58,437 nt of DNA from Alphaproteobacteria bacterium. Lineage in GTDB: Bacteria > Pseudomonadota > Alphaproteobacteria > JBILKX01. Positions 14,322 through 35,551 of this stretch are shown here, one piece after another. The position numbers and the translations under genes were made by a program. The notes below the pieces were generated by a model that was not told the origin of the DNA, ran no database searches, and saw only the letters and a program-made list of their open reading frames with translations. Location: contig JBILKX010000002.1 in the NCBI GenBank assembly GCA_044376435.1, forward strand, positions 1-58,437, read 5' to 3'. Positions within the stretch are counted from its first letter, which is position 1, and each line of letters starts with the position of its first letter.

Positions 14322-15497
14322 TTAGCCCCACATCTGGTAGACGGTACCAACGCCACGCGCCAGCAGGATTGCCCCCAGAGGCAACCCATAGGTCCACGCG
14401 CTTTGGGCGGTCGACAGCGCTGAGAATGTCGTCATTCCCCCTAAGCTCCGTAACGCCTGCACGCTCTTCACCAGCGCCAGTGCGCCCCCCAGCATCATCG
14501 ATGCCCCGGCGCCTGCTTGCACAGGACCGCCGACATATTCACCGCGTATCACACGCGTGAGCTTAGCCGACACCGACTCTGCCTTCTGTGCGGCTGGCGG
14601 CGGCGTTACCTCAGCTTGCCGAGCCTGGATCGGATGCGCGCCTAACCACCGCATCAGATTCCATCCGACAACAACCATCGCGCCATTGACGCCAAGACGC
14701 TTCACCAATTTAACCCCCGACATCGGCACTTGTTTGTAGGACCAGCACATCTTATACCCATACCGATTAGCAGTCAGTGTCTCCTCTGTTTCTGACTTTT
14801 TCTCTACGCCCATGAAGTCTACAGAAAATTGATATGTTTGGGGGCCGTCGCTGCTTTGCGCGGGCTTGACCTGTAGAAGAAGCCGTTGATTATCTCTCAG
14901 GTAGAAATAATTTTGAGCCATGTATTGGGAATAATTTCTTAACGTCTCATGATCAACGGAAGGATTCTTGTCTCTCACATAGGCTAATAATTTTTCTTTA
15001 CGATGGTTAAGACCTTCATTTGCGAAAAATTTTAAACCACTGTCTACAAGCTCTGAGCATGATTGTCGAGCAAGATTACCGAACGTCCCCTCAAGCATAC
15101 TCCACGGTTTTATACTTCCATCATTATCATAAACACACACGGCAGCTGTTGCATCTTCCCCTTGAGATTTATAGAATCCCTTCTCATCCAGTGAGCTCTT
15201 ATTACGTGCACCACTGCCACTGGACTCACCCCCGCCAACCGTATCAAGACGCCACTCTTGCTTCCACAAATAATCCCTGACAGCCTTGACCATGCCAGAA
15301 ACACCCAGCCCACATGTCGCCCCCGCAAGGCCCCGATTCAAGCCATTGATGAGCGTAAGCGGCATGGAAGCTTTTGCAGCTCCCACCCCTTGGGACAGCT
15401 TTCCAGCCTCTCCAGCTTGATCAACTTGTGGCAATGCTATGCCTTGGCAGGCTATGCCTACCCAAATACTCAGAGCAACCTTTAATCCAATACGCAT
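14322..15497 (-). CDS. Hypothetical secreted/membrane protein, tandem paralog A (constant ends, variable centre)
   Basis: 391-aa ORF with SD AAGGAAGG upstream. The signal-like N-terminus and the Gly/Ala-rich hydrophobic N- and C-terminal modules are nearly identical to 15585-16766. The central region of about 165 aa is divergent. Confidence 0.75.
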   Translation of the reverse strand: MRIGLKVALSIWVGIACQGIALPQVDQAGEAGKLSQGVGAAKASMPLTLINGLNRGLAGATCGLGVSGMVKAVRDYLWKQEWRLDTVGGGESSGSGARNKSSLDEKGFYKSQGEDATAAVCVYDNDGSIKPWSMLEGTFGNLARQSCSELVDSGLKFFANEGLNHRKEKLLAYVRDKNPSVDHETLRNYSQYMAQNYFYLRDNQRLLLQVKPAQSSDGPQTYQFSVDFMGVEKKSETEETLTANRYGYKMCWSYKQVPMSGVKLVKRLGVNGAMVVVGWNLMRWLGAHPIQARQAEVTPPPAAQKAESVSAKLTRVIRGEYVGGPVQAGAGASMMLGGALALVKSVQALRSLGGMTTFSALSTAQSAWTYGLPLGAILLARGVGTVYQMWG

Positions 15498-15584
15498 GGT
15501 ACCTTCCTTATCCTTATAATAAAACCTTATGATGATACTATAGACATTATCGCCGCCTCGTCAAGAGCGCTGTTATGAGAGAAC

Positions 15585-16766
15585 TTAGCCCCACATCTGA
15601 TAAATGGTACCAACGCCACGCGCCAGCAAGATCGCCCCCAAGGGCAGCCCATAGGTCCACGCGCTTTGGGCGGTCGCCAGCGCCGAGAATGTTGTCATCC
15701 CCTCTAAGCTCCGTAAAGCTTGCACGCTCTTCACCAGCGCCAAACTGCCCACCAGCACCATCGACGCCCCGGCGCCCGCTTGCAGAAGCCCGCCGACATA
15801 GTCACCGCGTATCACACGCGTGAGCTTAGCCGGCACCGACTCTGCCTTCTGTGCGGCTGGCGGCGGCGTTACCTCAGCTTGCCGAGCCTGGATCGGATGC
15901 GCGCCCAACCACCGCAGCAGCTTCCATCCGACGACAGCCATCGCGCCATTGACGCCAAGACGCTTCACCAATTCAATGCCCGACATCGGCACTTGTTTGT
16001 AGGACCAGAACAGATCATATCGATCCCGGCACTCTCGGCTTTTTCCGTCTGTGTCTACCGTTTTCAATCCACCGTTCCATCTTACAAAGAATTTATACGC
16101 TTGCACGCTATCACTAGACTCACTTTCAGGGGCAATACCTAACTTAAGCTCTTCTCCTGATTTGAGGTAAAAGTATTTTTGGGCCTTATTAGTATCACTC
16201 ACAAGGGGATTATTTTGAGGATGATGTTTTTCCATAAAGTAGTCGATGAATGCCTTTTTTTGAGCCTGAAAAACTTCATCCGGCTCGTCGAAAAACTGAA
16301 AACCGGCCGTTAAAAGCTCTGGACATATTCGATCAGCAAGCTCCAAGAAATCCTCTTGAAGACCACTCCATAGCTTAGAAGCATAGGAATAATAGCGGGT
16401 GCAAACAAGTAAATCACTATTCTTTGGTCCCCAGGCTTTTTCATTCTTCTCGGGAGCTACCCCATCCGCACCCGATAGAACGGTCTCAGTTGATTGACCA
16501 CCTATTCCCTGCACAAAGCGCCACTCTTGCTTCCACAGATACTCCCTAACGGCCTTGACCATGCCAGAAACACCCAACCCACACGTCGCCCCCGCAAGGC
16601 CGCGATTTAAGCCATTGATGAGAGCCAGCGGCATGGAAGCTTTTGCAGCTCCCACCCCTTGGGACAGCTTTCCAGCCTCTCCAGCTTGATCAACTTGTGG
16701 CAATGCTATGCCTTGGCAGGCTATGCCTACCCAAACACTCAGAGCAACCTTTAATCCAATACGCAT
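15585..16766 (-). CDS. Hypothetical secreted/membrane protein, tandem paralog B
   Basis: 393-aa ORF with the same upstream region and RBS as paralog A. About the first 83 and last 140 residues are conserved; the centre is divergent. Confidence 0.75.
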   Translation of the reverse strand: MRIGLKVALSVWVGIACQGIALPQVDQAGEAGKLSQGVGAAKASMPLALINGLNRGLAGATCGLGVSGMVKAVREYLWKQEWRFVQGIGGQSTETVLSGADGVAPEKNEKAWGPKNSDLLVCTRYYSYASKLWSGLQEDFLELADRICPELLTAGFQFFDEPDEVFQAQKKAFIDYFMEKHHPQNNPLVSDTNKAQKYFYLKSGEELKLGIAPESESSDSVQAYKFFVRWNGGLKTVDTDGKSRECRDRYDLFWSYKQVPMSGIELVKRLGVNGAMAVVGWKLLRWLGAHPIQARQAEVTPPPAAQKAESVPAKLTRVIRGDYVGGLLQAGAGASMVLVGSLALVKSVQALRSLEGMTTFSALATAQSAWTYGLPLGAILLARGVGTIYQMWG

Positions 16767-19639: not shown

Positions 19640-19805
19640 TATACCCAATGCAAGTGGAAAAGGGGAGAATTTGAGAGAGGGAATTTGGCTCAATACCAAG
19701 CTTGAAAAACCGCCCATATCGTGAGATACGGAAGGCTTTTTCAAGCGCTGGTGGTGGGTCATAATTCCCCGCTCAAAAATCCACTTTTTCATTTGGATTG
19801 GGTAT
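19640..19805 (-). mobile_element. MITE-like non-autonomous element, full-length copy (166 bp)
   Basis: Termini are TATACCCAAT...ATTGGGTAT(C). The reverse complement aligns end-to-end with 23210-23379 at about 85-90 % by eye. The whole element is a long imperfect palindrome with the internal pair GCTTGAAAAAGCC / GGTTTTTCAAGC. No ORF is conserved between the copies. Confidence 0.8.
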
Positions 19806-20048
19806 CATAGAAAATATGTCTTTGTAGTGGCGACAATTTACTAAAGCATCGAAGATAGCCACAATTCCAGCGCCCTGTCGAATTTTATAGGCTAAAGACA
19901 AATGTTGAGGGACCGCCTGCGTGACAACAGTCTGCACAGAAACCTGGAATTGCGATGGACCGTCATTATTAAGGGATTCGTTTGCCTCTGCTTGAAAAAC
20001 ACAACAATGTATAATGAGCATAAAACTTAAACTTAGGATCTTTTTCAT
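19773..20048 (-). CDS. Small secreted protein whose start and stop codons are supplied by repeat elements
   Basis: The signal peptide MKKILSLSFMLIIHCCVFQAEA begins at an ATG lying in the element loop sequence (half copy 20040-20062). The C-terminus ...IPNPNEKVDF and the stop lie inside element 19640-19805. Confidence 0.5.
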   Translation of the reverse strand: MKKILSLSFMLIIHCCVFQAEANESLNNDGPSQFQVSVQTVVTQAVPQHLSLAYKIRQGAGIVAIFDALVNCRHYKDIFSMIPNPNEKVDF

Positions 20049-20062
20049 TTGGATTGGGTATA
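20040..20062 (-). repeat. Half copy (one arm plus loop) of the repeat family
   Basis: The minus strand reads TATACCCAATCCAAATGAAAAAG and similarity then stops. It supplies the ATG AAA AAG start of ORF 19773-20048. Confidence 0.75.
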
Positions 20063-21722: not shown

Positions 21723-21905
21723 ATGAACTCAAAATCCAATGACACCGTTAAACAGATTAAAACCATTGCCGCTGCAATCGGCCTTGTCGCCATTATTGCT
21801 GCTGTTATCATGGTTCCCTCATTAATCAGCCCGCAAATCAAGATGGTTGAGCGTGATATTCCCAAAAGTGAGCTTGTAGGGTTAAGCACTCATGGCGAGG
21901 ACTAA
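21723..21905 (+). CDS. Possible small single-TM protein (uncertain)
   Basis: 60-aa ORF with one clear TM segment (IAAAIGLVAIIAAVIMVPSLI). It overlaps the annotated xerD start by 14 nt. No homology recognisable. Confidence 0.25.
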   Translation: MNSKSNDTVKQIKTIAAAIGLVAIIAAVIMVPSLISPQIKMVERDIPKSELVGLSTHGED

Positions 21906-22938
21906 GGCTCCTTCTCCGCCGATATCTTCAACCCAAAGCGCGAAAAATATGATTTCGGCCCCCCCCTATCCCGAGCAGAAAAAAACCGTAAAGCAAAATG
22001 TCAGCCTATCGACATCTGCTTGCCCCCCAGTTGTAGAGCGCTTTGTTGAGATGTTGATTGCCGAGCGTGGCGCCTCCAGTAACACCATCAGCTCTTATCA
22101 ACTTGATTTACAAGTGCTACAGAATTTTCTAGGCGCCCTACCACTCGAGGATGCTGCACCCACCGACCTACACGCTTTCTTTAAAGCTGCTGCTCAGGAT
22201 AAACCGACCACCCAAGCCAGGCGCCTTTCCTCGTTTCGTCAGTTTTACCAATTTCTCATTGAAGAAGACTATCGTAAAGATAATCCAACAACGTTAATAG
22301 AACGTCCTCGACTTACAAAGGCACTCCCCAAGATTTTAACAGAGGCAGATATAAACTCTCTTCTAAATGCCGCTCAACATTGGCCTGGCCCCGAAGGACT
22401 GCGACTCGAAGCTATGTTGGAAGTGATGTATGCAACCGGCATACGTGTTTCTGAGTTATTAACGCTCCCTTGGCGTCCAGGCGCTTGGGAACAGCCAACT
22501 ACGGATACCTTAGTGCCAATCACCATTCTCGGCAAAGGCCAAAAAGAACGAGTCGTCCCTCTGACACCCGCCGCAAATGCAGCTATACACGCTTATATCA
22601 AAGTACGCCCCTATTTTCTGGCCAAGTACCGTCGCACTGATAGTCCCTGGCTGTTTCCATCTGGCGGCCAAGGGCCCAACCACCACTTAACACGCCAGCG
22701 TTTTTATCAACTATTGCGTGAGTTAGCTCTACGCATTGGCATGGCTCCCGAAAAAGTTTCTCCCCATGTTATCCGGCATGCCTTTGCAACACACCTTCTT
22801 AATCATGGCGCTGATCTGCGTAGCGTCCAACAATTTCTTGGGCATGCCACGATTGGCACAACGCAAATCTATACCCATGTGGCCACAGACCACCTCACCG
22901 AGGTGGTCCAGACTTACCATCCACTGGCAAAGAAGTAG
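21892..22938 (+). CDS. xerD: Tyrosine recombinase XerD (start uncertain)
   Basis: The C-terminal catalytic region HVIRHAFATHLLNHGADLRSVQQFLGHATIGTTQIYTHV carries the R..HxxR..Y set. The N-terminal core-binding region starts near VERFVEMLIAERG. About the first 45 residues have no counterpart in typical XerD; an alternative ATG is at 21949. Confidence 0.85.
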   Translation: MARTKAPSPPISSTQSAKNMISAPPYPEQKKTVKQNVSLSTSACPPVVERFVEMLIAERGASSNTISSYQLDLQVLQNFLGALPLEDAAPTDLHAFFKAAAQDKPTTQARRLSSFRQFYQFLIEEDYRKDNPTTLIERPRLTKALPKILTEADINSLLNAAQHWPGPEGLRLEAMLEVMYATGIRVSELLTLPWRPGAWEQPTTDTLVPITILGKGQKERVVPLTPAANAAIHAYIKVRPYFLAKYRRTDSPWLFPSGGQGPNHHLTRQRFYQLLRELALRIGMAPEKVSPHVIRHAFATHLLNHGADLRSVQQFLGHATIGTTQIYTHVATDHLTEVVQTYHPLAKK

Positions 22939-23209: not shown

Positions 23210-23379
23210 TATACACCCAATCCAAATGAAAAAGTGGATTTTTGAGTGGGTAATTATGACTCTCGACCTGCGCTTGAAAAAGCCTTTTGTATCTAGTCGA
23301 TACGAGCAGTTTTTCAAGCTTGATGTTGAACCAAATTCCCTCTCGCAAATTCTCCCCTTTTCCACTTGCATTGGGTATA
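23210..23379 (+). mobile_element. MITE-like non-autonomous element, full-length copy (170 bp)
   Basis: TATACACCCAATCCAAATGAAAAAGTGGATTTTTGAG ... CCACTTGCATTGGGTATA, in the xerD-pgk spacer. It aligns with the reverse complement of 19640-19805. Confidence 0.8.
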
Positions 23380-32053: not shown

Positions 32054-32079
32054 ATATCAATGCTTCGTTAGGTTATTTA

Positions 32080-32868
32080 ATGAAAAAAAGTTTTTTCAAT
32101 TCACTCAAGGACAATTCCTTCATGCGTCAGATTTCCGTCATCGTCTTATGCGCTAGTTTATCTCTGAATCCCTTAGCCGGCTTGGCTTGGGCAGCTGATA
32201 TAATGGCGCCCACTGTAGACTCCCAAGGCACCTTAGCGGCGCCACAAAAGCTGGTAAAGGCCCCTGTTGTACCCCCACACCAAGACCCTGTAAAAAAGTC
32301 TCAGGCTACACAAACACGGTGGTTCTGGCCACTGGTCGCTGGTATCGGTACTGTCGTCGCTGTGGTCGGCGGGCTTGCTGTATGGTTTTTCTCACAAAAG
32401 TCAACCCCTAGCACAAGTCCATTGAGTGACAATCCAGGGTTAGATAACTCAAAGCTCTTGGATAAAATGCGCGCGCGTTTATCTGAACTCAACGCAAAAT
32501 ATCAGACTATGGATAGTGATTTAAAGATAATTCAACAAGTGGCTATTAACCCAGTGCAAAATCTAGAGACTCTTACCACAATAAAAGGGGGCGGGTTGAC
32601 TCTGAAGGACTATGAATTCCTAGGTGAAATCTTCGCATCACAAACTCACGAGGAGCTAAAAGCACAACTCTTGAACCTGCAACCGTATGCTATTCAATAC
32701 ATCCAGTCAACAGTAGCGCTTTTACCCTCAATAAAGGCAACATTGACTTCATTTGTTGAGCGCGCCGACACCACATCTGATCCCATATCTTGGGGAATGC
32801 TTATAAAAGAGGCTTTGGAAAAGAAGAAAAGCACACCTGCGCCGTCAGAATCTTTAATTACATCGTGA
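32080..32868 (+). CDS. Hypothetical signal-peptide/TM protein X1 (short paralog)
   Basis: 262 aa. About the first 117 residues are nearly identical to X2, including signal-like MRQISVIVLCASLSLNPLAGLAWA and the TM segment WFWPLVAGIGTVVAVVGGLAVWFF. An alternative start at ATG 32122 has AAGGA 10 nt upstream. Confidence 0.7.
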   Translation: MKKSFFNSLKDNSFMRQISVIVLCASLSLNPLAGLAWAADIMAPTVDSQGTLAAPQKLVKAPVVPPHQDPVKKSQATQTRWFWPLVAGIGTVVAVVGGLAVWFFSQKSTPSTSPLSDNPGLDNSKLLDKMRARLSELNAKYQTMDSDLKIIQQVAINPVQNLETLTTIKGGGLTLKDYEFLGEIFASQTHEELKAQLLNLQPYAIQYIQSTVALLPSIKATLTSFVERADTTSDPISWGMLIKEALEKKKSTPAPSESLITS

Positions 32869-32937
32869 AAAGGTAGAATTTTTCTGACTTACACCGCTTA
32901 GTGTGACAAAACGCACTAAAGGTATAGCTTAAACGAC

Positions 32938-33037
32938 CATAGTGCACAGCCGCTTTGAGAAACAAGATCGGCGCCGACCAAAACCAGGGCAGCTCATGGT
33001 TTAAGACCCAATGATAATGTTGGTCTATGCAACTGGT
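32938..33037 (-). pseudogene. Fragment of the GT2 glycosyltransferase gene 3' region (copy of 35781-35903)
   Basis: CCATAGTGCAC.GCCGC.TTGAGAAACAA.ATCGGCGCCGACCAAAACCAG.GCAGCTCATGGTTTAAGACCCAATGATAAT...GGTCTATGCA.CTGG matches the intact gene, with a deletion of about 24 bp. Confidence 0.8.
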
Positions 33038-33057
33038 GGGGTATCATTACTCATCCA

Positions 33058-33116
33058 GCGCTGGCTTGGATAGCTCTATCCCCTATATTGATGTTGTGCA
33101 TTTTCAGTTAACGCGA
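33058..33116 (+). pseudogene. Fragment of the cfa 3' end (copy of about 31923-31974)
   Basis: CGCTGGCTT ... TATTGATGTTGTGCATTTTCAGTTAACGCGA reproduces the last codons of cfa without its stop. The duplicated intergenic region follows. Confidence 0.8.
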
Positions 33117-33167
33117 CAGCCGGCGACCAAAGGCAACGCAGCATTGCGTGATGATTGCGTTTTCTTA

Positions 33168-33195
33168 TTGACAATTCTCCGTTGATTCCTATAGC
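33168..33195 (+). promoter_or_regulatory. Candidate promoter of duplicated gene X2
   Basis: TTGACA (33168-33173), 16-nt spacer, TATAGC (33190-33195). Paralogous to 32026-32053. Confidence 0.35.
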
Positions 33196-33220
33196 ATTTA
33201 GTGTTTCGTTACGTTATTTA

Positions 33221-35551
33221 ATGAACGAAAATTTTTTCAATTCACTCAAGGACAATTCCTTCATGCGTCAGATTTCCGCCATCGTCTTATGCGCTAGTTT
33301 ATCTCTGAATCCCTTAGCCGGCTTGGCTTGGGCAGCTGATATAATGGCGCCCACTGTAGACGCCCAAGGCACCTTAGCGGCGCCACAGAAGCTGGCAAAG
33401 ACCCAGGTTGTACCCCCACACCAAGACCCTGCAAAAAACTCTCAGGCTACACAAACACGGTGGTTCTGGCCACTGGTCGCTGGTATCGGTACTGTCGTCG
33501 CTGTGGTCGGCGGGCTTGCTGTATGGTTTTTCTCACAAAAGTCAACCCCTAGCACAAATCCATTGAGTGAAAAGTCAGACTTCGACCCCATTCCATTGGG
33601 TGAAAAGCCAGAATTCGACCCCATTCCATTGGGTGAAGAGCCAGGTTCTAGTGTTTCACACGCTTTCGACAACGGCACCCGCAATCCACAACCATACCCA
33701 CTAAATCCAAACCAGGATGACGTTCCCACCAAAGAGACCTTAGGCGACAATCGTGACCAACGGTTCACGCTTCATGATGACATACTGACAGAGCAGGCCC
33801 CATTTCCTGAACTTAAAAACCACAGCACTCAAGCGACCGGAACGCCAACAACACCAACGCCAGAGACGGTAGTAACAGAACAGTCACTCACACCTGTACC
33901 GGCAAAGACGGAGGAAAAGATCTCCATAAACGAAGAGACAAAGCCGCAAGGATCAAAGTTGCTTAGCTTAAAGGACCTTCACATTGTGAGTCACCAATTG
34001 AGAAACGCATCTATCCTAGAAGAGCTTTATTTGAAAAAGGAACATCTAGTAGAAACAGAAAATCCTAACGCTATTAAAGAGGAACTCAAAACCCACACGC
34101 ATCAGAACGGCCAGGAGTTTATCAATCATGACAGAACATTATTTCACTATCTTGCGCTCGCGAACGAGGTACATAAATATTCCAAGGTATTTGAGAAAGC
34201 CACACTAAAACTAAACCAGGACAAACTCTATCAGGGTCTAATCAAGTCGGCAGCTTATCTGAGAGATAACGTGCACACGGGGTTAGGTGGCAATCCTGAA
34301 CATAAAGACATGTTATCCAAGATTCACGATCACTTGGTGGAGGAGGAGAAGCAATGTCTTCAAGATCCAAAACACAGTATTAAATATCCCATAGAGCCCT
34401 CGACACCAGGGCCAGAGATGGCAGTAAAGACGCCAATAGTACCACCACAGCCGACCAAGATAGAGGCACTCGAGTTAACTCAAAATGAAGAGACAAAGCT
34501 ACAAGCATCAAAACTGCTTAGCTTACCGGACCTTATCCCTCTTAGTCAGAAATTGGAAACATTATCTTGGGAAAGAAAGCTTTGTTTGAAAAAAGATTCT
34601 GACGCTGTTCTTGATCAACGAACAGCGCCCATGAAAGATAATCCGGAAGCCAAGAAATTTAAGAGGTACGAATTGAACTTATTTCTATATCTTGCAAAGG
34701 CGAGCGATGCAGATCGTCATTCCAAGTTTTTTGAGACCGGAAAACAAGCACTACATGAGCAGGGAATGTACCCGGAGCTCATCACGGCCGCAGCTTATCT
34801 GAGAGATAACGTTAACACCAACACTGAATTAGGTGGCGATCCTGAACATAAAGACATGTTATCCAAGATTCACGATCACTTGGTGGAGGAGAAGAAGCAA
34901 TTTCTTCAAGATCCAAAACACAGTATTAAATATCCCATAGAGCCCTCGACACCAGGGCCAGAGATGGCAGTAAAGACGCCAATAGTACCACCACAGCCGA
35001 CCAAGATAGAGGCACTCGAGTTAACTCAAAAGGAAGAGACAAAGCCGCAAGCCGAAAAACTACTTAGCTTAAATGAACTTATTAATGTTACTAAGGCATT
35101 GAAAGAGTTATCTAATAAACCTTTATCTTCTGTAGAAAAGCTTTATTTGAAAAAGGACGTTCTTCAAGCGTCGCCCGACGATTCTCAGGCTATTCGCACT
35201 GAATTACTCAATCACATTTATAATACTGATGAAGGCAAAATTTTTACTTCTCATAAGTTGATATTATATAAATATCTTGTAAGGGCGAGCGTTGTAGGTG
35301 ATGATCCCGAGTTTTTTGAGACCAGAAAACGAGAACTATATAAGAAGCCAGGCTACGAAGCTCTAATCAACGCCGCAGCTCATCTGAGAGATAACATTCA
35401 CACAGGGGTAGGAGGTAGCGATCCTAAATATAAAGACATGTTATCCAAGATTCACGATCACTTGGTGGAGGAGGAGAAGATACTTCTCAATTCTAAAGAG
35501 CTCACGACACCGGCGCCAGAGCTAAAGACAGAAGTACCCGTAAAGACATAG
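33221..35551 (+). CDS. Hypothetical signal-peptide/TM protein X2 (long paralog with three repeats of about 185 aa)
   Basis: The start is taken at ATG 33221 by analogy with X1; the track uses TTG 33155, and 33263 is an alternative. It shares its N-terminal module with X1, then has a Pro/Thr-rich linker and three large repeats, each ending in AAYLRDN...PEHKDMLSKIHDHLVEE. Confidence 0.72.
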   Translation: MNENFFNSLKDNSFMRQISAIVLCASLSLNPLAGLAWAADIMAPTVDAQGTLAAPQKLAKTQVVPPHQDPAKNSQATQTRWFWPLVAGIGTVVAVVGGLAVWFFSQKSTPSTNPLSEKSDFDPIPLGEKPEFDPIPLGEEPGSSVSHAFDNGTRNPQPYPLNPNQDDVPTKETLGDNRDQRFTLHDDILTEQAPFPELKNHSTQATGTPTTPTPETVVTEQSLTPVPAKTEEKISINEETKPQGSKLLSLKDLHIVSHQLRNASILEELYLKKEHLVETENPNAIKEELKTHTHQNGQEFINHDRTLFHYLALANEVHKYSKVFEKATLKLNQDKLYQGLIKSAAYLRDNVHTGLGGNPEHKDMLSKIHDHLVEEEKQCLQDPKHSIKYPIEPSTPGPEMAVKTPIVPPQPTKIEALELTQNEETKLQASKLLSLPDLIPLSQKLETLSWERKLCLKKDSDAVLDQRTAPMKDNPEAKKFKRYELNLFLYLAKASDADRHSKFFETGKQALHEQGMYPELITAAAYLRDNVNTNTELGGDPEHKDMLSKIHDHLVEEKKQFLQDPKHSIKYPIEPSTPGPEMAVKTPIVPPQPTKIEALELTQKEETKPQAEKLLSLNELINVTKALKELSNKPLSSVEKLYLKKDVLQASPDDSQAIRTELLNHIYNTDEGKIFTSHKLILYKYLVRASVVGDDPEFFETRKRELYKKPGYEALINAAAHLRDNIHTGVGGSDPKYKDMLSKIHDHLVEEEKILLNSKELTTPAPELKTEVPVKT
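33902..35548 (+). repeat. Three tandem coding repeats (about 546-549 bp each) inside X2
   Basis: Repeat landmarks NEETKPQGSKLLSL, NEETKLQASKLLSL and KEETKPQAEKLLSL sit at residues 259, 444 and 626 of the track ORF. Blocks 34295-34498 and 34841-35044 are nearly identical. Confidence 0.85.

What the first reader, a model, noticed from the sequence alone, without database searches (positions are those of the whole stretch)
19640..19805. MITE-like non-autonomous element family with TATACCCAAT termini (at least six copies in 58 kb)
A 166-bp segment is bounded by the inverted termini TATACCCAAT ... ATTGGGTAT. It folds as one long imperfect palindrome: the left arm CCAATCCAAATGAAAAAGTGGATTTTTGAG pairs with the right arm CTCAAATTCTCCCCTTTTCCACTTGCATTGG, and there is an inner pair GCTTGAAAAAGCC/GGTTTTTCAAGC. 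The element recurs in opposite orientation at 23210-23379. Shorter forms lie at 195-230, 2168-2203 and 20040-20062, and a degenerate one at 43067-43101. No ORF is conserved between the copies and I see no transposase in the window. The density and structure recall MITEs or Rickettsia-type palindromic elements. I cannot assign this consensus to any named family.
Basis: seen in the sequence. Interest (0 to 1): 0.7.

Follow-up and report, generated by a model that had tools for sequence, protein, structure and literature searches.

The report
Small palindromic MITE-like repeat family
The flagged segment is one copy of a real family of about 165-bp, non-coding, hairpin-forming repeats with inverted ends, scattered through the genome of an uncultured alphaproteobacterium; this is an undescribed member of an ordinary, well-known kind of small bacterial mobile DNA.

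Summary
Window 19640-19805 and 23210-23379 are two 166-170-bp copies, 89-91% identical in inverted orientation. Each is a long imperfect palindrome. Derivatives lie at 193-230 and 2168-2203 (37-nt hairpins), 20040-20062 (truncated end) and 43067-43101 (decayed).

I found further full-length copies of the same family outside the window, in contigs of the same organism:
- one at the very start of the source contig, 1.1 kb left of the window;
- the same locus in a strain about 4% diverged;
- one between two unrelated genes on another contig;
- one read through as the false N-terminus of an F-box/LRR protein.

The two least decayed copies have perfect 23-nt inverted termini (TATACCCAATCCAAATGGAAAAG). 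All copies are bracketed by TA. None conserves a reading frame, and none matches Rfam.

It has the architecture of a bacterial MITE, closest in design to Correia, RUP and ERIC elements. Transposition itself is not shown. No empty site exists in the available data, the TA duplication cannot be told apart from the inverted ends, and the two insertion sequences I could sample (IS982 and IS5 families) have unrelated ends.

Verdict: a new member of a known kind, of modest interest.

The parts
19640..19805 (-). Full-length copy A (166 bp). Read L end to R end on the minus strand. The R end (TATACCCAATGCAAGTGGAAAAG) is at 19640 and the L end (rc ATACCCAATCCAAATGAAAAAG) at 19805. Partly decayed inverted termini.
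   Evidence: nhmmer 198.8 bits; fold -70 / -86 kcal/mol. The R end lies 47 nt upstream of the ATG (19592) of a 115-aa minus-strand ORF. The L end supplies the last 11 codons and the stop of the 91-aa ORF 20048..19773.
23210..23379 (+). Full-length copy B (170 bp), L end to R end on the plus strand. It is the most decayed full copy.
   Evidence: (192.7 bits). It lies between the xerD-like stop (22938) and the pgk start (23414). The R end is 34 nt upstream of the pgk ATG. A weak promoter-like match, TTTCCA-17-GATAAT, spans the R end and its flank.
193..230 (+). Short form: a 37-38-nt hairpin made of L-end bases 1-29 plus the last 7-8 bases of the R end. Perfect 13-bp stem, 10-nt loop.
   Evidence: D8, I5, I12; DNA fold -13.2 kcal/mol, z -6.6. 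The first 31 nt are identical to the L end of copy B. It lies 66 nt right of the IS982-family element and 87 nt upstream of tRNA-Arg.
2168..2203 (+). Short form with the same junction (...AAAAGTGGATT|GGGTATA). 12 of 13 stem pairs.
   Evidence: z -5.4. It encodes the last 12 codons and the stop of the MFS-transporter ORF 897-2204. A Logan contig (L029) breaks exactly here.
20040..20062 (-). Truncated L end (23 nt, TATACCCAATCCAAATGAAAAAG), followed by unrelated sequence. It is a 100% direct repeat of the L end of copy A, 256 bp away.
   Evidence: (D17, I11-I14). Its ATGAAAAAG is the called start codon (MKK...) of the 91-aa signal-peptide-like ORF. It has no fold of its own.
43067..43101 (+). 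Decayed short form (about 80% identical to the 37-nt hairpin by my own base count) that no longer folds. It is fused on its left to a copy of another short repeat (43032-43066).
   Evidence: D8, D9; E 0.09; z 0.02. It sits in the intergenic region downstream of rpoC.

Best explanation
This is a lineage-specific family of non-autonomous, MITE-type mobile DNA in an uncultured, deep-branching alphaproteobacterium.

**The element.**
- The intact element is about 163-166 bp.
- It is bounded by 23-27-bp terminal inverted repeats (TATACCCAATCCAAATGGAAAAG).
- It is nearly palindromic over its whole length.
- It encodes nothing.
- It sits in intergenic DNA or clips the ends of genes.

**Proposed mechanism (inferred).** A transposase encoded elsewhere in the genome binds the two inverted termini and inserts the element at TA dinucleotides, duplicating the TA. 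This is how IS630/Tc1-mariner-mobilised RUP and the Correia elements behave. After insertion the copies decay neutrally: copies C and D are nearly perfect, A and B are eroded.

**The short forms (inferred).** The 37-nt hairpins are internal-deletion derivatives. The motif TGGATT occurs once near the L end and once near the R end. Slippage between the two, favoured by the long hairpin, would remove the roughly 130-bp core and leave exactly TATACCCAATCCAAATGRAAAAG-TGGATT-GGGTATA.

**Side effects (sequence shown, function inferred).** Copies supply stop codons, a start codon, and possibly promoter elements to neighbouring genes.

**Shown:** repeat family, dispersal, inverted termini, TA ends, palindromic fold, lack of coding, decay series.

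**Inferred:** transposition, TA duplication, identity of the transposase, origin of the short forms by deletion.
For: - **Full-length copies at four independent loci.** A, B, C and D/E share 81-90% identity between loci and 96% between strains at the D/E locus.
- **A fifth locus seen only as protein.** The P0121 N-terminus matches an element frame at 86% identity, E = 2.8e-11.
- **Density.** That is about 4 full and 5 partial copies in roughly 70 kb of sampled genome.
- **Termini.** The inverted termini are perfect over 23 nt in C and D, 26 of 27 in D.
- **TA flanks.** TA lies immediately outside TACCC...GGGTA on 7 of 8 flanks at the four loci.
- **Fold.** The hairpin energy is -88 to -91 kcal/mol in C and D on both strands, with no strand bias. 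That fits a DNA-level palindrome rather than an oriented RNA gene.
- **No coding.** No reading frame is shared; a 1-nt indel shifts the frame between A and B. There is no Rfam family.
- **Composition.** Element GC is 41-46% against 47.7% for the window.
- **Assembly breaks.** Independent assemblies break inside copies, as expected for a multi-copy repeat: L004 at both ends, L029, and the start of the ENA contig.
- **Short forms.** All three share the same junction, which is the one predicted by deletion between the TGGATT repeats.
- **Published definitions.** Size below 500 bp, inverted termini of 4-30 bp, AT-rich, stable stem-loop, and 5'-TA-3' termini are the published defining traits of bacterial MITEs (PMC10969869 section 2.1; PMC2229807 Introduction and Table 1).
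Against: - No empty site or insertion polymorphism was seen. Every locus is filled in every assembly retrieved.
- The TA...TA flanks are themselves an inverted repeat. They may simply be the outermost bases of the termini, so no target-site duplication is demonstrated.
- No transposase with matching ends was found. The IS982-family and IS5-family elements of this organism have termini no more similar to the element's than shuffled sequence. Only about 70 kb of the genome was accessible, however.
- Covariation is minimal (2 of 64 pairs, 4 sequences), so it says nothing either way about structure.
- The exact-pattern scans found the family only in this organism: once in the metagenome collection (L042), plus one chance hit among 185,579 species genomes. 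The age and host range of the family are therefore unknown.
Confidence: 0.65

Rival explanations
1. It is a palindromic repeat that spreads, or once spread, by a mechanism other than a DDE transposase acting on inverted termini. One version is a REPIN-like doublet moved as single-stranded hairpin DNA by a RAYT/HUH (IS200/IS605-type) enzyme, with the 37-nt hairpins as REP-like singlets. Another is an RPE-like ancient selfish palindrome with no target duplication.
For: - Each end contains its own small hairpin (AATCCA-N10-TGGATT).
- The whole element is a foldback, and singlet hairpins coexist with doublet-like long forms. This is the REP/REPIN pattern described in PMC3337134.
- No target-site duplication can be demonstrated.
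- The host is an alphaproteobacterium, like the RPE-bearing Rickettsia.
- Some copies run into ORFs.
Against: - The ends lack the GTAG or CGTC head that defines the two REP superfamilies (PMC3733652; read directly from the sequence).
- The short form is not one of two repeated units of the long form. It is the L end plus 8 nt of the R end, which fits a deletion better.
- There is no Y1/HUH transposase among the genes listed in any retrieved locus.
- Unlike RPEs, no peptide frame is conserved between copies.
Confidence: 0.13
2. It is a domesticated regulatory cassette. The repeats persist because they act on neighbouring genes, for example as an outward promoter or 5'-end module at the R end, or as an RNA hairpin controlling mRNA stability or processing (Correia- or ERIC-like function). 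On this view they are not mainly selfish DNA.
For: - The R end lies 34-47 nt upstream of a start codon, pointing into the gene, in 3 of 4 informative copies: A to the 115-aa ORF, B to pgk, and the P0121 copy to the F-box gene.
- A weak -35/-10-like match spans the R end of B.
- The L end provides ATGAAAAAG as a called start codon, and provides stop codons for two ORFs.
- Correia and ERIC are precedents for promoter, RNase III and RNase E effects (PMC10969869 section 4.1; PMC2229807).
Against: - Three cases out of four is not statistics, and copy C does not follow the pattern.
- A TA-seeking element would land in AT-rich promoter regions anyway.
- Promoter-like sites in the region are no more frequent than in shuffles (10 against 7.2 +/- 2.5).
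- The hairpins lack T-tracts, so they are not intrinsic terminators.
- Copies A and B are decaying, with broken pairs, which argues against selection on the structure.
Confidence: 0.1
3. It is a family of small structured non-coding RNA genes (sRNA-like), not mobile DNA.
For: The predicted folds are very stable, with z-scores of -5 to -7. Two compensatory pairs occur in the apical stem. In A and B one strand folds better than the other.
Against: - No Rfam hit.
- The intact copies C and D fold equally on both strands.
- There is no promoter or terminator framing the element.
- Copies occur in both orientations relative to neighbouring genes and overlap ORF ends.
- Truncated and deleted derivatives are typical of decaying repeats.
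Confidence: 0.05
4. Copies A and B are functionally tied to the xerD-like recombinase they bracket. The 3.4-kb segment 19806-23209 would then be an invertible or mobile cassette (a composite transposon or recombinase substrate) bounded by 170-bp inverted repeats.
For: A and B are in inverted orientation and flank xerD-like, corC-like and two small ORFs. A Logan contig (L004) spans exactly the stretch between the two copies.
Against: - Other copies sit at loci with no recombinase.
- The recombinase passes the NCBIfam tyrosine-recombinase subfamily cut-off. It scores 299 bits on the XerD equivalog model against a cut-off of 330.
- Its homologues are ordinary chromosomal XerD.
- ENA and JGI assemblies show the same single orientation at 99.99% identity.
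- The GC content of the segment is unremarkable.
- The Logan break is explained by shared 31-mers with other copies.
Confidence: 0.03

Closest known systems
Correia elements (CREE/NEMIS) of Neisseria
   Same: - Small (about 100-155 bp) and non-coding.
- About 24-26-bp terminal inverted repeats beginning TATA.
- TA at both termini.
- The whole element folds into a long hairpin.
- Full-length and internally deleted size classes coexist.
- Often sit just upstream of genes, where the ends contribute promoter elements.
- No autonomous partner known.

Sources: PMC2229807 Table 1; PMC10969869 sections 3.1 and 4.1.
   Different: - The host is an uncultured alphaproteobacterium, not Neisseria.
- From my memory of the Correia consensus, there is no sequence relationship beyond the TATA start and a GGATT motif; this was not tested with a tool.
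- No IHF site was recognised.
- TA duplication, promoter activity and RNase III processing are all demonstrated for Correia and only conjectured here.
RUP of Streptococcus pneumoniae (IS630-Spn1-mobilised MITE)
   Same: About 107 bp and non-coding, with inverted termini and insertion at TA. It tends to lie next to or inside IS elements (PMC2229807). Here copy D and the hairpin at 193-230 bracket an IS982-family element, and an IS5-family element sits 7 bp from copy E.
   Different: RUP termini match those of a resident IS630 member. No IS with matching ends was found here, and no IS630-family gene appears in the sampled loci.
ERIC/IRU and YPAL (RU-2, 168 bp) of enterobacteria
   Same: They are imperfect palindromes of 127-168 bp in intergenic DNA. 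They are co-transcribed with neighbouring genes, occasionally add peptide tails to ORFs, and exist as shorter and longer variants (PMC2229807; PMC2759123).
   Different: ERIC has only about 7-bp perfect termini, and YPAL has internal repeats and no TA ends. The present family has long perfect termini and TA ends. It is unrelated in sequence and host.
Rickettsia palindromic elements (RPE)
   Same: The host is an alphaproteobacterium with an apparently host-associated lifestyle. The elements are 105-150-bp palindromes, and some copies are fused to ORFs (PMC2229807; PMC10969869 section 4.2).
   Different: RPEs are typically inserted in frame inside conserved genes and each family encodes a conserved peptide. 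Here no frame is conserved and copies only clip gene ends. The termini are twice as long as the 12 bp given for RPEs.
QMITE1/QMITE2 of Coxiella burnetii
   Same: QMITE2 has 23-29-bp inverted termini, a 113-145-bp core, a very stable predicted hairpin, and a gradient from full-length to short decayed copies (PMC10969869 Fig. 2 and section 2.2; PMC5896051).
   Different: QMITE2 has 7-9-bp direct repeats, and none are seen here beyond TA. The host is a gammaproteobacterium. No sequence relationship was tested.

Membership tests
Prokaryotic MITE (generic definition, PMC10969869 sec. 2.1; PMC2229807) | Length below about 500 bp with no transposase or other conserved coding capacity | tested here: met
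   163-166 bp. Six-frame translations share no frame across copies, and a 1-nt indel shifts the frame between A and B.
Prokaryotic MITE (generic definition) | Terminal inverted repeats | tested here: met
   Perfect over 23 nt in copies C and D, 26 of 27 in D, and eroded in A, B and E.
Prokaryotic MITE (generic definition) | Multiple dispersed copies in one genome | tested here: met
   Full copies at four loci with DNA (A, B, C, D/E), one more seen as protein (P0121), and five partial or short copies, all in about 70 kb sampled.
Prokaryotic MITE (generic definition) | Target-site duplication flanking the element | tested here: inconclusive
   TA lies outside TACCC...GGGTA on 7 of 8 flanks. TA is self-complementary, so it may instead be part of the inverted termini. 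No longer direct repeat is present.
Prokaryotic MITE (generic definition) | Evidence of mobility: empty versus filled sites between strains or relatives | not testable with these tools
   All retrievable assemblies are the same strain (99.7-100% identical) or share the filled D/E locus. The nearest other organisms are only about 53% identical in XerD. The MAG GCA_041443065.1 could not be downloaded.
Prokaryotic MITE (generic definition) | AT-rich relative to the genome; stable stem-loop | tested here: met
   Element GC 41-46% against 47.7% for the window. Fold z -5 to -7; -88 to -91 kcal/mol for C and D.
Type I MITE (derived from a resident IS) | Termini or internal sequence shared with an autonomous IS of the same genome | tested here: not met
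   The termini of the IS982-family element (L028 272-1262) and the IS5-family element (L017 1240-2091; L042) score no better than shuffles against the element's ends. Only two IS types could be sampled, so a partner elsewhere is not excluded.
IS630/Tc1-mariner-mobilised MITE (RUP-like) | TA target duplication plus termini matching an IS630-family element | tested here: inconclusive
   The TA flanks are compatible.
REP/REPIN mobilised by RAYT | GTAG or CGTC tetranucleotide head on a 20-40-nt palindrome; two inverted REPs forming the REPIN; a RAYT gene flanked by REPs | tested here: not met
   The ends read TATACCCAAT, with no GTAG or CGTC head. The short hairpin is the L end plus 8 nt of the R end, not a unit repeated twice in the long form. 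No Y1 transposase appears in the gene tables of the retrieved loci.
Rickettsia palindromic elements | A conserved peptide frame, with in-frame insertion inside conserved genes | tested here: not met
   No conserved frame. Copies overlap only the last 11-12 codons or the first codons of ORFs.
Correia element | Neisseria-specific consensus sequence; IHF site in the long form; TA duplication | not tested
   No Correia sequence is available in the tools. From memory, the consensus (TATAGTGGATTAA...) differs. The resemblance is one of design only.
Any curated RNA family (Rfam 15) | Covariance-model match | tested here: not met
   No match at the gathering thresholds in the window except RNase P RNA and two tRNAs. 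No match at E up to 1 around either long copy.

The most novel reading that the evidence does not exclude
The family may be a still-active orphan MITE that doubles as a portable gene-end module in an uncultured, probably protist-associated alphaproteobacterium.

- Its R end would deliver promoter or 5'-UTR sequence. It lies 34-47 nt upstream of start codons in 3 of 4 informative copies, including pgk and an F-box/LRR effector gene.
- Its L end would deliver start (ATGAAAAAG) and stop codons.
- It would be mobilised by a transposase whose ends match none of the resident IS982 or IS5 elements.

On this reading the repeats would be rewiring the expression and termini of effector-like genes rather than being inert.
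Probability: 0.1. Interest if true: 0.45.

Novelty: new member of a known kind. Interest (0 to 1): 0.25.

Why it matters
Practically, the family explains why assemblies of this organism fragment. The source contig starts in a copy, and Logan contigs stop in copies.

It also warns annotators that several called gene ends are repeat-derived:
- the tail of the MFS transporter;
- the start and tail of the 91-aa ORF;
- the 58-aa N-terminal extension of the F-box/LRR protein P0121.

Biologically, it adds one more example of Correia/RUP-style palindromic MITEs. This one is in a deep-branching alphaproteobacterial lineage that carries eukaryote-like F-box/LRR genes and at least two multi-copy insertion sequences, one of them polymorphic between strains. 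If complete genomes of two strains become available, it offers a clean small system for asking which transposase moves an orphan MITE. It does not open a new kind of biology.

Tried and rejected
**1. Exact-pattern scans for the termini.**
- Among 185,579 species genomes there was one hit, inside a coding-looking region of a Saprospiraceae MAG with no palindromic partner. I took it as chance.
- JGI metagenomes gave none.
- IMG/VR gave 12 hits, none continuing into the element, so all chance.
- A second pattern from the invariant core found one real copy, L042, and none in viral contigs.

**2. Empty-site test through relatives.** XerD homologues stop at 53% identity, so no syntenic relative exists in the databases.

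**3. Six-frame peptide search for ORF-embedded copies.** A concatenated query gave only P0121. Its contig, in GCA_041443065.1 and JGI 3300059473, could not be downloaded.

**4. Paralogue fishing with the F-box/LRR protein.** There are no close paralogues. P0129 turned out to belong to an unrelated 21%-GC organism.

**5. Autonomous partner.** The IS982-family and IS5-family termini show no significant similarity to the element's ends. An initial impression of a shared ACCC...TGGAnAAG motif with IS982 did not survive the shuffle test.

**6. RNA gene.** No Rfam match, no strand bias in the intact copies, and only 2 compensatory pairs among 64.

**7. Intrinsic terminator role.** The hairpins have no T-tract. 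The one terminator-like hit, inside copy A, is the apical stem followed by GGTTTTTC, and the region's count equals the shuffle expectation.

**8. XerD-linked invertible cassette.** Rejected because copies occur at recombinase-free loci and the assemblies agree on a single orientation.

Full report
**Checking the observation**

- The sequence at 19640-19805 reads TATACCCAAT...ATTGGGTAT, and the segment at 23210-23379 is its inverted counterpart.
- The two align end to end at 89-91% identity.
- Each folds as a single long hairpin far more stable than dinucleotide shuffles: z = -5.1 and -6.9, with 0 of 200 shuffles as good.
- The 10-mer with at most 1 mismatch occurs 21 times in the window against 3.4 expected.
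- An nhmmer profile of the two long copies finds four further places in the window and nothing else at E below 0.1:
  - 195-228 and 2168-2196 are 37-nt hairpins with 12-13-bp stems.
  - 20040-20062 is a bare 23-nt L end.
  - 43066-43098 is a decayed short form that no longer folds.
The 'six copies' are two full elements and four derivatives.

**Where the window comes from**

- Looking up window proteins shows that the window is bases 1136-59572 of a 59.6-kb ENA metagenome contig, ERZ27272045 k141_1224461.
- The same sequence is present at 99.99-100% identity in JGI and Logan assemblies of other samples.
- The XerD-type recombinase in the window has no homologue above 53% identity among 5.8 billion proteins. 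Its named hits are alphaproteobacterial: Azospirillum, Hyphococcus and Rhodospirillaceae MAGs.
- Linked contigs carry GapR, flagellar genes and F-box/LRR proteins.
- The host is therefore an uncultured, deep-branching alphaproteobacterium with eukaryote-like effector genes. No relative is close enough for synteny-based empty-site tests.

**More copies outside the window**

- **Copy D.** The ENA contig begins with a full copy (L028 1-171), 1.1 kb left of the window, with termini matching at 26 of 27 positions.
- **Copy E.** The same locus occurs in a different strain, JACCDH011201523.1 (L042 48-228). It is 96% identical across the element and supplies the missing left flank.
- **Copy C.** Another full copy lies between two hypothetical genes on a different contig (L018 5097-5264; also L043 and L044). 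It has perfect 23-nt termini.
- **P0121 copy.** A six-frame peptide query retrieved one protein, P0121. Its first roughly 44 residues are a translated element copy placed in front of an F-box/LRR gene. Other cluster members start at MELYP or MLRRT and lack the extension.
- **Truncated end.** A 40-nt L end lies at L017 2240-2279.
- **Assembly breaks.** Logan contigs L004 and L029 and the ENA contig all terminate inside copies. This is the usual signature of a multi-copy repeat.
- **Density.** About 70 kb of accessible genome holds 4 full loci, plus one more seen as protein, and 5 partial copies. By my own extrapolation that would mean on the order of a hundred copies in a genome of a few megabases.

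**Anatomy**

- The consensus element is TA|TACCCAATCCAAATGGAAAAGTGGATTTTTGAG ... core ... CTCAAATTCTCCSCTTTTCCATTTGGATTGGGTA|TA.
- It is 163-166 bp between the flanking TAs and has 41-46% GC, against 47.7% for the window.
- Copies C and D are almost perfect foldbacks, at -88 to -91 kcal/mol as RNA and about -50 as DNA, equal on both strands. A and B have accumulated mismatches (-51 to -86).
- Pairs that vary mostly break. Only two pairs in the apical stem show compensatory change.
- This is the pattern of a DNA palindrome decaying after insertion, not of an oriented, selected RNA.
- No reading frame is shared, because a 1-nt indel in the centre shifts the frame between A and B.
- Rfam has nothing.

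**The short forms**

- All three short forms have the same junction: L-end bases 1-29 (ending ...AAAAGTGGATT) joined to GGGTRTA.
- In intact copies, TGGATT occurs at L-end positions 24-29 and again at the R end (CCATTTGGATTGGGTATA).
- Deleting between the two TGGATT repeats gives exactly the 37-nt hairpin. This is the kind of slippage that long hairpins provoke.
- I therefore read the short forms as internal-deletion derivatives, comparable to the short class of Correia elements. They keep 13 bp of each terminus, so they might still be mobilisable. That is inference.

**Flanks and possible partners**

- TA lies outside TACCC...GGGTA on 7 of 8 flanks. TA ends are typical of bacterial MITEs (PMC2229807).
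- Because TA is its own complement, I cannot tell a TA target duplication from two extra terminal bases without an empty site.
- Two insertion sequences of this organism were recovered:
  - An IS982-family element (L028 272-1262; its last 127 bp are the start of the window) sits between copy D and the hairpin at 193-230. It is multi-copy.
  - An IS5-family element duplicates TA and is polymorphic between strains. It is present 7 bp from copy E in L042, absent at the same spot in L028, and also truncates an F-box gene in L017.
- Neither has termini resembling the element's ends. The element is, for now, an orphan.

**Context and effects on genes**

- Copy A: the R end is 47 nt upstream of a 115-aa ORF. 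The L end provides the last 11 codons and the stop of a 91-aa ORF, whose start codon lies in the truncated L end at 20040-20062.
- Copy B: the R end is 34 nt upstream of pgk.
- P0121 copy: the R end is about 42 nt upstream of the MELYP start.
- The hairpin at 2168-2203 supplies the last 12 codons and the stop of an MFS transporter gene.
- These are the usual collateral effects of MITEs. The 3-of-4 association of the R end with gene starts is suggestive, but too few cases to test. The promoter scan is at background level.
- The inverted pair A/B brackets xerD-like and corC-like genes. I consider that coincidental: other copies have no recombinase nearby, the recombinase looks like ordinary chromosomal XerD, and the assemblies agree on one orientation.

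**Comparison with known families**

- By design, the family matches the published description of bacterial MITEs (PMC10969869 section 2.1; PMC2229807 Table 1).
- It is closest to Correia (24-bp termini, TA ends, long and short classes, promoter-proximal positions, no known transposase) and to RUP (TA insertion, association with IS elements).
- It differs from RPEs (no conserved peptide frame), from REP/REPIN (no GTAG or CGTC head, no RAYT gene seen), and from ERIC and YPAL (much longer perfect termini, TA ends).
- It is not a member of any named family I could test.

**Verdict**

- It is a new member of a known kind of element, in a poorly sampled lineage.
- Transposition, the TA duplication and the transposase remain to be shown.
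- The decisive data are a complete genome, or the two strains compared locus by locus.

Noticed in passing
window 1-127 (continues to the left: L028 272-1262): This is the right end of a 991-bp IS982-family insertion sequence with termini ACCCGAGTTTTGGATAAGAGA. Its transposase gene ends at window base 124. The IS is multi-copy, with at least five different flanks in JGI and Logan contigs. It sits between element copy D and the hairpin at 193-230.
   Followed up: yes
L042 229-1068 versus L028 172-180; also L017 1240-2091: An IS5-family element (IS427/IS1031-like, termini GGTTCTGTG[A/C]AC, TA duplicated) is present 7 bp from the element copy in strain JACCDH01 but absent at the same site in the ENA strain. 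It also truncates an F-box gene in L017. This is a real insertion polymorphism in this lineage, but of a different element.
   Followed up: partly
window 4828-4889, 6850-6911, 43032-43093: A second short repeat family: GAGTCnCCyGTTAA..AG.C.CTCTG.GGCC-N4-TATACCTAATkAAGA. The first two copies are 98% alike, and each lies just after a stop codon. The third is fused to the decayed short hairpin. All three share a TATACCTAAT motif resembling the element terminus.
   Followed up: partly
window 14322-16766 and 32061-35551: Two ORFan genes of 391 and 393 aa lie in tandem at 91-94% nucleotide identity. Two genes share a 95%-identical 5' part (32061-32360 and 33202-33501). The 798-aa ORF 33155-35551 contains 546-585-nt internal tandem repeats. 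None has a Pfam match.
   Followed up: no
window 3862-3895: A 34-nt indel distinguishes the JGI 3300044637 contig L030 from the window, at the 3' end of the 250-aa ORF. The two sequences are otherwise 99.96-100% identical.
   Followed up: no
window 21892-22938: The XerD-type recombinase has a roughly 45-residue N-terminal extension, and its best non-self homologue is only 53% identical. A 60-aa ORF (21723-21905) overlaps its start.
   Followed up: partly
L018 1656-3842; P0121/P0122/P0125 (other contigs of the same organism): F-box plus leucine-rich-repeat proteins (eukaryote-like effectors) exist as at least two paralogous loci. These are about 99% identical overall but have diverged 5' ends and different upstream neighbours. 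One has an element copy in front, and one is cut by the IS5-family element.
   Followed up: partly
window 465-840 and 317-393: RNase P RNA (class A, 328 bits) and tRNA-Arg(ACG) lie directly downstream of the hairpin at 193-230. The MFS ORF as listed (897-2204) starts just after the RNase P RNA.
   Followed up: no
window 58200-58437 and L022 1-236: Seven independent assemblies all break within about 240 nt beyond the right edge of the window. Three Logan contigs break at the identical base. This points to another repeat, not this family, at that end of the contig.
   Followed up: no
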